Shown here: piece by piece, positions 1,608 through 27,500 of the stretch | Numbering within the stretch: the stretch's first letter is position 1 | Layout of the letters: each line of letters opens with the position of its first letter | Source of the DNA: Torpedo marmorata | Taxonomy: Eukaryota | Assembly (NCBI GenBank): GCA_977017645.1 | Contig: OZ360247.1 | Location: forward strand, 11,036,001 to 11,100,000 | Direction of reading: 5' to 3' | Length of the DNA: 64,000 nucleotides | The notes under the pieces: generated by a model | The model's database searches: none | Told to the model about the DNA's origin: nothing | Seen by the model: only the letters and a program-made list of their open reading frames with translations | Position numbers and translations under genes: made by a program

Positions 1608-3203
1608 CTTTGGCTCTTCTGTATATATTTCAGCATAGTTTGGTACGTATTTTCCTTTTCCTCCTTCATGTCCTCTGTGGGGTTTTTGCTTTTGTTCTGG
1701 TCGGGTTATTGGTGGAGGGAATATCTCTGTTTCTTTGCCATCTCCTTCTTCTTTTACATTTGGACTCAAAAGAGAAGGATTCCAAGATCCTACTTCAGGT
1801 AAATACTCTTTTCCTTCATACTGCTTCATTAGGTGTCCTATTTTGGTAAGAAGGTCTGTAAAAGCAGCCTCTAATTTATGTTTCAGACAATCTGTCTTAA
1901 TTATTCTTATTACATGAGCAAACAGAGTTTGTATATCCTTGTTGGGTTCTACAGTTCGCACTTCTTCATTAGCTTTAGCCTCAAACATATCATCAACATT
2001 TGTTTTCATTTTAGAATTATCTGATGAAGAACTTTTAACTGATTCCTTTTTTATTTTCTTGGGATGTACTGGGGGAAATAAATCGTTATTACCTTCCTGT
2101 GTGTCTATGCCCAGATTGCTGGTTGTCTGTTGTTCAGAACCCGTGACTTCGTTTAGCTGTTGATTGTAATTACCCTCTTTGTATTTCTTATATCCCTCTT
2201 TGGATTGTCTTACAATTTCAATTTGAGAAAGTTTAGTGCTGGGCTGTGTTGCAGGAGTTGGACTGAAACTTACATCAACATTTTTCTGCACAGCATTATC
2301 CAGGAACTGGCCGAGAGGCTTGTGCCAAGATTCATCTTCATTATCACCAGGATCAATCATCTCAACCTGTTGAAGAGCACGGCTGAAATGTCCAGGATTG
2401 GGTGCTGTCCTCAGAACTGGCTTTTGTTTAGCTTTAACATTATTTCCCACTTCAATGATTTCTTCAGGTAGCAATTCTATTACTTTGGGAATATCTGCTG
2501 ACTCTATATCTTTAGTTTTTGGCTCTGTGAGGGTTGAAATATCCAGTTCCTTAACATCTGGGTGAAGGATTCAATTTCATATATGATTTCTGGTTGTTCT
2601 ATAGTTGTTTCTGGGATTATTAAAATTGTAGTTGGCTCCACTTTCTCATTGTTATTTGCTTGTTGATCTAATTAAAGTTCTGTCTTAACTCTCCTTATTA
2701 CCCTGTGTTTTTTAAAATTATTCTGCGAATTAAATTTAAACCCTGCTTCCACAGGAAGCCCATACCTATGAGAATCACGTGGAACATCGCTGAATTGATG
2801 TAATGGAACTTTAACAGAACCAAATATATTCCGATGACTGCCCCACTGATGTTGCCTTGAAGATGCTTTGCTCTGCTAAGGTGAGGAGTATATCGAGCAT
2901 TTCTCTCGTAGGATGGCCTTTGCCTAATTCTACTTAAATGAGGAATACTTGCTGCTTTTGAAGCAACCAAACGTGGATCTAAATGATTTCCAATATACAT
3001 GTTCTTTTCATTTTCTTCTCTTTGATGAAGCAAACCTAATTTGGAAGATCTTGATAATGAGTTTTCACGAGGCAAACTTGGACTGTCCATCAAACTGGGA
3101 CCAGTGTTTTGATTAAGGAATGATTCCAAAATTTTATGGTTATTTAAGGACATCTGAGCTCTCAGCACAGTCCCATTAATCAATAGGAAAGTTTCACTTA
3201 CAT
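1608..3203 (-). pseudogene. LRRC37: LRRC37-like large exon containing the LRRC37AB C-terminal domain; frameshifted
   Basis: Acceptor tttgtatttcAG|AT at 3204/3203 and donor AAG|GTAATT at 1608/1607. Encodes VEPNKDIQTLFAHVIRIIKTDCLKHKLEAAFTDLLTKIGHLMK, comparable to human [23 protein letters not shown]...CAKLISRTGxLMK. Frame changes near 2870 and 2570; in-frame TAA at 2674-2672. Confidence 0.85.
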
Positions 3204-3479
3204 CTGAAATACAAATAAAAAGTGAATTCAGAAATAACATTTTCAGTATTTCCTGTTCTACTCGAAAAATGTTACCTTATTCTGTTCATTTTATTTACAG
3301 TTATTTCCCCTATTTACCTAGCTTTTGATATCATTTTTTTTATCTTGAATATTCCTAACACCCGTCTATGCAGAATCATTTGGAGTAGAGAGTGTAAATA
3401 TTCATCACTGTAACAAGACATTTCTCTTGTTTCCGTCCAATTGAGAAACAACATGAGACAGCACAACCCACATCAAATC

Positions 3480-3780
3480 TTCAGGCAGGGCAAACAGCTT
3501 CTCACCATTTATCATGTCAAACCCTTGAAGAAGTTCATATCTTGTCCATCATATCTTCCAAATATCAGAGAAAAGGTTAATTCCACAATTTCATCTCAGT
3601 TGACAGCTACAGAAATCAGTCTAATAAAGGGCAAGAGGAATAACTACACAACACTGTACTCCCAGCATGACCCCCATGACATCGTATACAGGTATAATTG
3701 CAGCAAGACTTCCTTCAAATCCCTTGCAATAATTTTGAACATGCAAATAGTTTCTTAATTCCTTGCTATGCCAACCAAGA
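3480..3780 (-). mobile_element. Old CR1 LINE 3' remnant
   Basis: Degenerate similarity to the reverse complement of the CR1 3' region at 9.3-9.9 kb. Confidence 0.45.
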
Positions 3781-4844
3781 TTTAATCATGAATTTCAGGT
3801 CAAGTATTTCAATGAGAGCACTTTTGGATGACTTGTGCATTTGACCCTGAATACTTTGTGTTTGTTTAAGTTTATATATTTTATCCAGTTTCATATGCCT
3901 TGATTGTAGTTTATTTATTTAGTCCAGGAAATGTTTGATACATTAGAGCTACACTTGAATCTCAGTACGCAATTTGAAAACTTTGACAATATTAATAACA
4001 ATACTAAAACATATTGTACATGAAGAATTGAAAAGCACATTAGCCTTATTTACATTACTTTTACTCCCAATTTAGCCTTTATCATGCTTAGCCTCAGGCT
4101 TCCCTCCCATGCTGCTCAACACACTCCACCAATCACAGCCAAACATAGAACTAACTCAACAGAGAACTTCTCCAGCTCGACCTGTCCACAAAATTACTTC
4201 ACTCTGCTGCCAAACTATACTTCTTCATGTATCTTGCAACCAACAGCTCGTCTTCAAAAATTTTACAGCAGGAAGAAATCTGCACTTGGGCTATTTAAAG
4301 GGAATGCTAATCACTTGCAAGTTTAATGATGATTAACTTGCAGGAAATTGGGTTATTGCAAAGAGTTCTTTACACTTTTCAGAACCTAGCTCAGATTCTG
4401 AAATTTATCGTGAATGGTATGCTGAGACTTCTGAACTCCAGCCAACTACTTTCTCCCAGATAAGTGGGTTTGGTAGCAATGCTTCATGGTCTCCAGCATG
4501 ATAGAATGAGAGGACTAACAGAGCCTATTAGAAAAGAGGAGGTTGAAGGGGAGAAAGGCCTTCAAGAGGAAGTCACATCCACAGATTTTTCAGGACTAGT
4601 TCTCCCCAACCCATCCTAGTATCAGCAAAGCTTGAAGAGATTTGGTTCTCGCATGATTGACAGGGTAATGTCATGTGCTGAAGCTAAAACTATAGATGCC
4701 AAGTAAGGCCAGAACCATTTACTGCCAGTGGCAGTGAAGGTGACAGTGGTCATCAATTTCTGCATCTCCAGTGTGGGGGACATCAATAATATTTTACAAT
4801 TAAGCATTAGAGAGATCACAGAGCCTCAGAACATCTTAAGTTTT

Positions 4845-5094
4845 AAAGATTTAGACATACAGCATGGTAACAAGCCATTTCGGCCCACAAGCCGGTGCCG
4901 CCCAATTACACCCAGTTAACCTACAACCCCCAGTACGTTTCAAATGGTGAGAGGAAACAGGAGCCTCCGAAGGAAACCCACGCAGACACAGGGAGATCGT
5001 ACAAACTCCTGACAAATAGTGCGGGATTCAAACCCTGGTCCTGATCGCTGGCGCAGCAACAGCGTTGCGCTAACTTGCGCTAACCGTCCCACCC
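4845..5094 (-). mobile_element. tRNA-derived V-SINE (HE1-like)
   Basis: The reverse complement has a tRNA-like head with A/B boxes, the V-domain GGAGTTTGTACG..CTCCCTGTGTCTGCGTGGGTTTCC and an AT-rich tail; homologous to the copies at 8696, 16603 and 63568. Confidence 0.85.
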
Positions 5095-5429
5095 TGCAGA
5101 TTTGAATTCATCATTTTCTCTCTTAAGACATCAGTAGGTGTATTCTTTATAAGAGAGGTCATTAAAAGTTACTGCATTTGGATCGAGTTAAGGTTACATT
5201 CAAATCAGCCATGAAATGGCAAAGCACATACTAGAGGCCGGGTGGCTGACTCCTGAGTGTTCATGTGTTGACAGAGAATAGCAGCCAGGCAGAGATTTAA
5301 CTGGATTTCTGGCTTACCAATTGTGCAGGGAGCCAGTTATTGTACTCATGTCTCTTGAAGATCCCAACTAAGAAACCAGAGATAATCTGCAACTACATGG
5401 AATTTCACTTTGTGCTTGTTTAGTTGTGT

Positions 5430-25802: not shown

Positions 25803-25876
25803 AAAGGTATCTGTCCATCTGTAGGGTAACCAAGTGCTTTCTTGGACTGTATGTAATATCATTTTTGCCTAATTCC
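25803..25876 (-). pseudogene. LRRC37: LRRC37-like first LRR exon, 74 bp (frameshifted)
   Basis: ttttccccaaaAG ... |GTAAGA. Reads ELGKNDIT/TVQESTWLPYRWTDT with two +1 insertions, comparable to [24 protein letters not shown]. Confidence 0.75.
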
Positions 25877-26869
25877 CTTTTGGGGAAAATAAATCATAAA
25901 AATATTCACATTATTGAAGAAGTTATAAAAACTACTGTCAGATACATATTTATGCCGCTATTGGTGCAGGCAGTTAATTATGCTCTAAGAATATTTAAGG
26001 ATGACCAAAATATTTATCAATGATTTATCATGTTTCATTCATAATTTAACATAACACAGAAAATAATGAGCAGAATTGAACAAACTCTAACTTGGTCGAG
26101 AATATGCACCTTTCATAATGAGCTTGTTTGTGTCCATTTTATCTCCAAAAAGTGAGATCATGCATAGATTTTTAACTGTGTTTTGAAGTTACAGGTTAGC
26201 ATCGAATTAATTGTAGGTTCTTCTCTCATACATCTTTTTCAACACGATCCTTGCACAGGTGAACAATATTATATATCTCCAGAATTCTGTTCATGAACAT
26301 TTTGGTTATCAGATTTGGCATGTCTCTGACATCACAAAAACACCTGACAAACTTAGTACTGTACTCTGCACTCTAAATAACTTAGGAGCTAACAATTTCC
26401 GTTAATATTATATTTATGTTTACTTAATTCTGTATTATATCCAGTTATGCATTGTTAATGATATTCTATACACTTGTTCACTTTGTTTATTGTCAATGTC
26501 CACCTCGGCATATCATCCATCCATTTTCCCTCTTCTCGTGTGGGTTTTGTTTGCTGTATATTTTGTATTAATCTTGCAATGAAGTCATTGACAGCTGACT
26601 CTTGAACTCCTTTACCCTTTACTTGGCAAAACATGATTGAACCTGTCCTCAAGGCAGAGTAGAAATTATTTTTGGAGTTTTTATTTTTTGCAATTGCACT
26701 ACCTAAAATTTCCATTGTGGATGAAATCTTGATAGCAAGGGAAATATTTATCTTTTTAGAGAATTCCATGCATGTTACTTGATACATTGCAAGGTTAAGT
26801 ACAATAAAATTCTGAGTATTGCAAACAACTAATCAGAATATAGAAGGCAATTGGAGGGACTTGGGGCAA

Positions 26870-27080
26870 CAATCTTTCACTCAACATCAGCGAGACGAAG
26901 GAGCTGGTCAATGACGTCCAAAAGAGGGGCAGAGCCCATTCCCCTGTCCGCATTGATGGTGCTAAGGTGGAGATAGTTGACCCCTTCAGTTCTTAGGGGT
27001 AAATATTTCCAAAGGCCTATCCTGGTCAAATCACATTGACATAATGGCCAATAAAATACCTGTTCAGCTGCAACAAGTAA
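26870..27080 (+). mobile_element. Old Rex1/Babar LINE remnant
   Basis: CTCAACATCAGCGAGACGAAGGAGCTGGTC... is collinear with 33270-33450. Confidence 0.6.
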
Positions 27081-27373
27081 GAATGGACATTGCACAATGT
27101 ATATGACATTAAACTCATTGTCATTGTAATTACCATGAAGATCTCAGTGCTTTATCAAAGCTTAGTTGTATCCAATCTAATCTCGGTTGACTTTCATTAA
27201 CTTTTCTCCTGCTATTTTCAACTTTTGATTACATTATTGCAATATGACCTCTCATCTTTCTTTTTAAAAAGTTAACAATTGAAAGAGTAATAATATGGAA
27301 CGTCAAACTTTAGAAGAAAGTTGGCTGGAATTTAAAAGCAGAGGCAAATGAACAACATTAGCCATTAACTTAC

Positions 27374-27500
27374 ACTTAAAATTTTCATAAGTTTCTCCTC
27401 TATTCAATCCCAAAGGAACAGTTTAATCTTTTCCCAGTATTGATTCCAATGCCCATGAATTGAAGCCTACTTTTGCACACCAATCTTCGACACACATTCA
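27374..27500 (-). pseudogene. LRRC37: Degenerate LRRNT-like end of the upstream LRRC37-like exon (5' boundary unknown)
   Basis: NVCRRLVCKSRLQFMGIGINTGKRL/VPLGLNRGETYENFK followed by |GTAAGT. Loosely resembles [32 protein letters not shown]; frameshifted. Confidence 0.5.

What the first reader, a model, noticed from the sequence alone, without database searches (positions are those of the whole stretch)
1608..27500. Hidden LRRC37-like gene with mammal-like exon architecture in an apparent cartilaginous-fish genome
Seen in sequence: seven clear GT-AG exons (74*, 72, 81, 74*, 75, 116 and ~1600 bp; * = carries +2 nt) plus a degenerate LRRNT exon, in order and phase-compatible on the minus strand, mostly invisible to the ORF track. 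Established: the 27-aa 'GTF..W.G..FL' repeat, the CCLC cap and the 'AHVIR..K.DC' C-terminal domain characterise LRRC37, a family described mainly from mammals and expanded in primates. Inference: the exon structure may date to the jawed-vertebrate ancestor.
Basis: partly seen in the sequence, partly recalled or inferred. Interest (0 to 1): 0.7.

Follow-up and report, generated by a model that had tools for sequence, protein, structure and literature searches.

The report
Broken LRRC37 gene copy, ray genome
This is a damaged, probably dead copy of LRRC37, a sperm-head membrane protein gene already known in sharks and rays, so it is mostly ordinary, although it shows that the gene's exon layout is as old as jawed vertebrates.

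Summary
Seven GT-AG exons of an LRRC37 gene lie on the minus strand at the lengths reported, and 1809-1991 matches Pfam LRRC37AB_C. They correspond to human exons 2, 3, 5, 6, 7, 8 and 9. The family call and the ancient exon layout hold. The surprise does not: NCBI/UniRef already name LRRC37A-like proteins in sharks and rays, and a 2026 preprint places LRRC37A in cartilaginous fishes. Exon 4 is gone, and no LRRNT/exon 1 is detectable in the window. There are five frameshifting indels and an in-frame stop, and the spliced exons stop after 24 codons. A neighbouring 2.07-kb tandem array has far fewer indels, which argues against assembly error. Best reading: a recently disabled copy in a ray genome, nearest to Narcine (76%). 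Side result: gene models from 8 shark and skate species skip 333 nt inside exon 9, removing the three-helix LRRC37AB_C core; this copy has lost that acceptor.

The parts
25803..25876 (-). LRRC37 exon 2 equivalent (LRR1), 74 nt; +1 nt near 25851 and +1 T in the run at 25805-25803
   Evidence: (E 1.5e-9)
21064..21135 (-). exon 3 equivalent (LRR2), 72 nt, intact
   Evidence: E 1.9e-15
16530..21063 (-). intron where exon 4 (LRR3) should lie; exon not detectable; holds a LINE-like piece (17526-19034) similar to 32406-33998
16449..16529 (-). exon 5 equivalent (27-aa LRR4, GTFKSWQG), 81 nt; conserved WHG His replaced by Gln
   Evidence: (E 2.9e-17)
16177..16250 (-). exon 6 equivalent (LRR5), 74 nt; +2 T in the run at 16231-16228
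   Evidence: (E 3e-14)
7041..7115 (-). exon 7 equivalent (LRR6), 75 nt, open
   Evidence: E 1.1e-18
6851..6966 (-). exon 8 equivalent (LRR C-terminal cap, CCLC), 116 nt, open
   Evidence: E 3.1e-25
1608..3203 (-). exon 9 equivalent, 1596 nt; frameshifting deletion near 2843, TAA at 2674-2672, 1-nt loss near 2566; open from 2567 to the donor at 1608
1809..1991 (-). LRRC37AB_C core (three predicted helices in the skate orthologue); Cys invariant in 32 of 32 aligned homologues is Phe here
1760..2092 (-). position of the 333-nt exitron skipped in other elasmobranch gene models; donor GAAG|GTAATA kept, acceptor position reads CAA instead of CAG
23892..25787 (-). Tigger/pogo-like DNA transposon (DDE_1, HTH_Tnp_Tc5) inserted about 16 nt behind the exon 2 donor; related element at about 7474-8295
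35943..60573 (.). 2.07-kb tandem array upstream of the gene (11 full units plus partial ones); not part of the gene, used as an assembly-error gauge

Best explanation
The locus is an intron-containing LRRC37 gene copy in a ray genome (nearest relative found: the electric ray Narcine) that has recently lost coding function. SHOWN: family identity, exon map, the lesions, and that joining the exons gives no full-length protein. FROM LITERATURE AND A MODEL: the intact form is a single-pass membrane protein with signal peptide, LRRNT, six LRRs and cap outside, a long disordered linker, a three-helix LRRC37AB_C domain and a transmembrane helix. In mouse it sits at the outer acrosomal region, binds Na/K-ATPase alpha subunits and is needed for male fertility. 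INFERRED: the shark and ray orthologues do the same job in sperm. INFERRED: this copy arose by segmental, probably 5'-truncated, duplication, escaped selection and now makes no protein or only a very short decay-prone product, while another copy does the work.
For: Joining the seven exons stops after 24 codons. Skipping LRR1 stops after 58; skipping LRR1 and LRR5 stops after 282, before the C domain. There are five indels and one TAA in 2,088 coding nt, against 1 indel in 12,440 nt in the three closest array pairs and 13 in 33,152 nt over all 8 nearest-neighbour pairs (P(>=5)=0.0016). Two of the five indels are not homopolymer changes, and the stop is a substitution. Exons 1 and 4 are undetectable. 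C730F hits one of only 9 columns invariant in 32 homologues. Human LRRC37 has many partial or disrupted copies (PMC3530683 section 4). An unnamed 289-aa relative, P0135, has 60 of 76 tail residues identical to the window and joins exon 1 straight to the LRR cap, which suggests other remodelled copies in a nearby lineage.
Against: Amino-acid decay is not above intact orthologues. The window has 15 private changes at otherwise invariant columns, against 13-38 in five annotated full-length relatives, and they are only marginally more radical (mean BLOSUM -0.6 vs +0.13, p=0.08). At 65 deeply conserved sites the window has 2 changes (51 covered) and Narcine also has 2. All seven exons keep canonical splice sites. 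Three of the five indels are short-run length changes, typical of long-read error. No intact paralogue was seen: only 64 kb is available. Exon 1 could lie beyond position 64,000 behind the 24-kb array.
Confidence: 0.7

Rival explanations
1. The gene is functional and the breaks are assembly errors; exon 1 lies beyond the window and exon 4 was lost in frame or mis-assembled.
For: Short terminal branch (0.082 vs 0.16 for Narcine); few private changes; three indels in short runs; loss of exon 4 is in frame, and 3 of 32 mammalian gene models skip exactly this repeat.
Against: The array in the same window is resolved to 4 substitutions and 0 indels between two 2,073-nt units. A multi-base deletion, a nonsense substitution and C730F are not typical error types. 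The window has no N.
Confidence: 0.1
2. This is the species' only LRRC37 locus and it has been lost, a natural knockout of a gene that is essential for male fertility in mice.
For: Long native-looking introns (74 to 9,061 nt), recent decay, and no second copy of any exon in the window.
Against: All 12 elasmobranch species seen have annotated LRRC37 proteins (several partial). The mouse knockout is sterile. P0135 points to extra copies in a related lineage.
Confidence: 0.13
3. The locus still makes a shortened product by skipping both broken LRR exons and splicing from the LRR-cap exon to an internal acceptor at 2068, which is in frame with the open C-terminal part.
For: A pyrimidine-rich acceptor before 2068 has the right phase. 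The 960 nt from 2567 to 1608 are open. P0135 shows a comparable internal splice. Human LRRC37B splits exon 9.
Against: It needs three non-default splices and an exon 1 that was not found. None of the 15 named elasmobranch models examined uses that acceptor. C730F lies in the part that would be kept.
Confidence: 0.07

Closest known systems
Elasmobranch 'leucine-rich repeat-containing protein 37A-like' (Narcine bancroftii P0006, Amblyraja radiata P0001, Pristiophorus P0003, Scyliorhinus canicula P0005, Hemitrygon P0007)
   Same: 76%, 71%, 68%, 63% and 65% identity over about 660-680 columns; same exon order and C domain.
   Different: The window copy lacks exons 1 and 4, has five frameshifts and a stop, and has lost the exitron acceptor.
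Mammalian LRRC37A / LRRC37B (PMC3530683; mouse Lrrc37a in bioRxiv 10.64898/2026.09.11.751093)
   Same: Gap-free collinear LRRs of 24, 24, 24, 27, 24 and 25 residues, CCLC cap, large exon 9, LRRC37AB_C and TM motif; exon boundaries coincide.
   Different: About 36-39% identity in the LRR region. Most therian proteins have a long repetitive exon 1; shark, ray and echidna proteins reach the LRRNT at residue 33-38. The middle of exon 9 aligns poorly.
Partial and disrupted human LRRC37 duplicates (LRRC37A4, A5, C, F)
   Same: Intron-containing copies with missing exons and frameshifts.
   Different: Different lineage and different lesions; a duplicate origin is inferred here, not shown.
Other extracellular LRR proteins (Slit2, LRRTM2, VLR, LRRC26)
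   Same: Same LRR solenoid fold in the skate model; modular LRR exons occur in several families (PMC6642158).
   Different: The best of 80 other LRR proteins scores 49.3 bits against the window's LRR region; 31 of 33 named mammalian LRRC37 proteins score higher.

Membership tests
LRRC37 family | LRRC37AB_C domain (PF14914) above the curated cutoff | tested here: met
   45.7 bits vs cutoff 27, E 8.5e-12, profile positions 3-64
LRRC37 family | Best relatives are LRRC37, not another LRR family | tested here: met
   7 of 7 hits are elasmobranch PF14914 proteins; the next 14 hits after the elasmobranchs are mammalian LRRC37; 31 of 33 mammalian LRRC37 outscore all 80 other LRR proteins
LRRC37 family | One LRR per exon (exons 2-7), cap on exon 8, large exon 9 | tested here: met
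   18 of 24 mammalian gap ends at window boundaries; paper text. Indirect: no mammalian DNA was compared.
LRRC37 family (intact gene) | Six LRRs | tested here: not met
   exon 4 (LRR3) absent
LRRC37 family (intact gene) | Signal peptide and LRRNT on exon 1 | tested here: inconclusive
   not found in the 38 kb upstream; could lie beyond the window
LRRC37 family (intact gene) | Open reading frame from LRRs to C domain | tested here: not met
   stop after 24 codons; five indels and a TAA
LRRC37 family (intact gene) | Transmembrane exon 10 | not testable with these tools
   not in 1-1607; the gene runs off the window; present in the skate orthologue
LRRC37 family | Synteny with the amniote locus; testis expression; acrosomal location | not testable with these tools
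   no neighbouring cellular gene recognised in the window; no eukaryotic genome or expression collection available

The most novel reading that the evidence does not exclude
This broken locus is the only LRRC37 of an internally fertilising ray. That would be a natural, recent knockout of a gene kept since the jawed-vertebrate ancestor and essential for acrosome ion balance and male fertility in mice. It would make it testable how ray sperm manage without the gene, and whether the conserved elasmobranch exitron isoform, which lacks the LRRC37AB_C helices, marks a separable second function.
Probability: 0.13. Interest if true: 0.65.

Novelty: new member of a known kind. Interest (0 to 1): 0.27.

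Why it matters
The headline (LRRC37 in cartilaginous fishes) is already in databases and in a 2026 preprint, so it matters little. Three smaller points have value. First, the exon map gives genomic support that human exons 2-9 date to the jawed-vertebrate ancestor, and that the short exon 1 is ancestral; searches showed no paper making this exon comparison. Second, a 333-nt in-frame skip shared by gene models of skates and three shark groups removes exactly the family's signature helices, which is a direct handle on what that domain does; one search gave one listing, a breast-cancer neoantigen review, not read. Third, if rays duplicate and discard LRRC37 copies, the instability described for primates is not primate-specific.

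Tried and rejected
LRRNT/exon 1 search by tblastn, frameshift-aware alignment, profiles and shuffles: nothing above background. A 'CPFL' stretch near 27,090 and an 'NVC' stretch near 27,490 were considered by eye and rejected on these scores. A 72-nt acceptor/donor-bounded piece in the array unit (36304-36233) looked LRR-like but matched no LRRC37 exon profile. Array unit: no Rfam family at gathering score, one chance match at E 0.3, no tRNA, no Pfam match for 6 of 6 array ORFs tried. Named bird, reptile, amphibian, bony-fish or chimaera LRRC37 did not appear; these searches depend on exact words, so this is not evidence of absence. Two unnamed full-length homologues (P0134, P0137) branch between elasmobranchs and mammals; their species could not be looked up, so the range outside sharks, rays and mammals rests on the preprint alone. 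dN/dS could not be computed because no orthologue DNA is available. The fold search named only generic LRR proteins. Supplements of PMC3530683 could not be read and may hold exact human exon sizes; bioRxiv supplements and Figure 1A of the preprint were not seen. No complex prediction was run.
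Full report
OBSERVATION. Seven exons with canonical AG/GT ends lie in order on the minus strand: 25876-25803 (74 nt), 21135-21064 (72), 16529-16449 (81), 16250-16177 (74), 7115-7041 (75), 6966-6851 (116) and 3203-1608 (1596), with introns of 4667, 4534, 198, 9061, 74 and 3647 nt. Per-exon profiles find the six short exons at E 1.5e-9 to 3e-25 in the six-frame window, and the last open frame matches Pfam LRRC37AB_C at 45.7 bits against a cutoff of 27. The eighth element, a degenerate LRRNT exon, is not supported: 135 of 200 shuffles of 26,900-27,700 score as well, and the best profile hit in the whole window has E 2.4.

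IDENTITY. The C-terminal query gave 7 hits among 59 candidates, all sharks and rays, 5 of them already named LRRC37A-like. A profile of five such proteins listed 17 elasmobranch proteins first and then 14 named mammalian LRRC37 proteins (E 3e-69 to 9e-48) before any other LRR protein. The C domain plus TM region added 10 marsupial and monotreme proteins. In total 12 elasmobranch species were named. The window read-through is 76% identical to Narcine bancroftii and 71% to Amblyraja. In a 20-row tree it sits in the elasmobranch clade (100/100), next to Narcine with weaker support (87/83). Of 33 named mammalian LRRC37 proteins, 31 outscore the best of 80 other LRR proteins against the window's LRR region.

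EXON ARCHITECTURE. Giannuzzi et al. (PMC3530683; sections 4 and 6 and passages read) describe exons 2-8 as the LRR region with each repeat spanning a junction, an exon 8 whose skipping shifts the frame, and a 1532-bp exon 9. The window has one repeat per exon, a 116-nt cap exon (not a multiple of three) and a 1596-nt large exon. I had no mammalian DNA, so I tested boundaries indirectly. Of 32 named mammalian proteins aligned to an elephant reference, 12 have gaps of 8 residues or more, and 18 of the 24 gap ends lie within 2 residues of a window exon boundary, against about 20% by chance. After collapsing repeated events it is 12 of 18 (p about 2e-5). The six misses are two whole-repeat gaps in Heterocephalus and one 9-residue gap in Sarcophilus. 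The boundary after LRR1 is not hit by any mammalian gap. Caveat: modular LRR exons occur in several families (PMC6642158, abstract and passages), so the LRR introns alone are weak evidence; the 81-, 75- and 116-nt exons and the large exon 9 are more specific. The inference that the layout dates to the jawed-vertebrate ancestor is well supported. Shark, ray and echidna proteins reach the LRRNT at residue 33-38, so the long repetitive exon 1 of most therians looks derived.

THE COPY IS BROKEN. Exon 4 (LRR3) is undetectable. Exon 1 is not in the 38 kb upstream. LRR1 has two single-base insertions and LRR5 a two-base insertion. Exon 9 has a deletion near 2843, a TAA at 2674-2672 where Narcine has Glu, and a one-base loss near 2566. 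The joined exons stop after 24 codons; even skipping both broken LRR exons stops before the C domain. Cys730 (skate numbering), invariant in 32 of 32 aligned homologues, is Phe, and the WHG His is Gln. A Tigger-like transposon sits about 16 nt behind the LRR1 donor.

ERROR OR DECAY? The window holds a tandem array of 11 full 2.07-kb units. Its three closest pairs differ by 26 substitutions and 1 indel in 12,440 nt. All 8 nearest-neighbour pairs give 13 indels in 33,152 nt, which as an upper bound predicts 0.8 indels in the 2,088 coding nt; five are seen (P=0.0016). Against long decay: the window has 15 private changes at otherwise invariant columns, while five annotated relatives have 13-38, and the window's changes are only marginally more radical (p=0.08). 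Three of the five indels are short-run changes. With a recalled neutral ratio of about one indel per 8-10 substitutions (from memory, not a call), five indels imply about 2% divergence, which would give roughly a dozen such changes and one or two stops. That fits recent loss of function. This is inference; dN/dS could not be run.

HOW IT WORKS. The intact protein, modelled from the skate orthologue with 32 sequences, has a confident LRR solenoid (about residues 34-240), a long low-confidence linker, three helices at 685-744 (pLDDT near 50) and a TM helix at 823-852. The fold search returns generic extracellular LRR domains. In mouse, LRRC37A is testis-enriched, lies at the outer acrosomal region, co-precipitates with ATP1A1 and ATP1A4, and its loss causes acrosome swelling and sterility (bioRxiv 10.64898/2026.09.11.751093; abstract, sections 5 and 9 and passages read). 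Human LRRC37B modulates sodium channels at the axon initial segment (PMC10754148; search listing and passages). I infer that elasmobranch orthologues have the sperm role and that this copy has none. The most likely history is a segmental, intron-bearing duplicate that lost or never carried exon 1 and then decayed (0.70). Rivals: sole-copy loss (0.13), assembly error (0.10) and a shortened spliced product (0.07). P0135, an unnamed 289-aa protein with 60 of 76 tail residues identical to the window (Narcine 55 of 70, skate 58 of 76), joins exon 1 directly to the cap exon. It hints at other remodelled copies nearby in the tree, but its species is unknown and the margin is small.

WHAT IS KNOWN. 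[quoted passage not shown] It was one of 2 papers holding both 'LRRC37' and 'cartilaginous'; the other mentions LRRC37 once, as an amniote neighbour of the old interferon locus (PMC5127012, one passage). Bekpen et al. (PMC3371713, passages) discuss mammals only in the passages seen. Searches showed no paper comparing exon structure with sharks; subscription journals are largely not covered.

SIDE RESULT. Of 15 named elasmobranch proteins aligned to the skate protein, 8, from 8 species (two skates, two catsharks, three carpet sharks and a sevengill shark), lack exactly 111 residues, skate 653-763. The junction reads E|D in all 8, which fits a donor inside the EG codons and an acceptor inside the PD codons: a 333-nt in-frame exitron. 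It removes the three predicted helices of LRRC37AB_C and keeps the TM helix. In the window the donor survives (GAAG|GTAATA at 2092) but the acceptor position reads CAA. Narcine also lacks the PD, and Hemitrygon lacks the EG and has a different 158-residue skip. These are gene models, not experiments. One search for LRRC37 with 'exitron' gave a single breast-cancer review, seen only as a listing.

VERDICT. The feature is real and the family call is right. Presence in cartilaginous fishes is already known, and this particular copy is most likely a young pseudogene. New member of a known kind; interest 0.27.

Noticed in passing
window 35,943-60,573: Macrosatellite-like tandem array: 11 full units of 2,064-2,078 nt plus partial ones, 96.2-99.8% identical, in three subtypes (units 2/4/6, 3/7/9, 5/8/10), with a 200-nt CpG-rich core (71% GC) and a GA microsatellite. 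An inverted, 79% identical piece of the unit lies at 60,290-60,573. No Rfam, tRNA or Pfam match.
   Followed up: partly
window 2092-1760 (-) and P0008, P0009, P0010, P0012, P0014-P0017: Conserved 333-nt in-frame exitron in exon 9 of elasmobranch LRRC37 gene models that removes the LRRC37AB_C helices; the acceptor is lost in the window copy.
   Followed up: yes
P0135 (unnamed, 289 aa): Mini-LRRC37 form: signal peptide and LRRNT joined to the LRR cap, then to the end of exon 9 and the TM; no LRRs. Shares tail residues with the window copy.
   Followed up: partly
P0134, P0137 (unnamed, 1145 and 1043 aa): Full-length LRRC37 homologues with a short N terminus that branch between elasmobranchs and mammals (95/92); species unknown.
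   Followed up: partly
window 25,893-25,877 (-) and P0121: The intron end before LRR1 translates as FPKR in the window, and the Dromiciops gene model starts with the same FPKR before its LRR1, which suggests a similar acceptor sequence at the same intron in a marsupial and a ray.
   Followed up: no
window 23,626-23,742 (-): Weak 5S rRNA match (38.4 bits, gathering score 38), probably a 5S-derived SINE or pseudogene.
   Followed up: no
window 23,892-25,787 and 7,474-8,295: Two related Tigger/pogo-like elements with 32-nt internal repeats inside LRRC37 introns.
   Followed up: partly
window 29,500-34,000, 17,500-19,000, 12,300-14,100: Decayed LINE-type retroelements: RVT_1 at 32,812-33,510, endonuclease at 31,024-31,635, an esterase-like ORF1 piece at 31,931-32,374; the piece at 12,300-14,100 looks Penelope-like by eye and had no Pfam match.
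   Followed up: no
window 2,843-2,698 (-): The shifted frame after the first exon 9 frameshift ends in a hydrophobic stretch of about 30 residues before the stop; probably chance.
   Followed up: no
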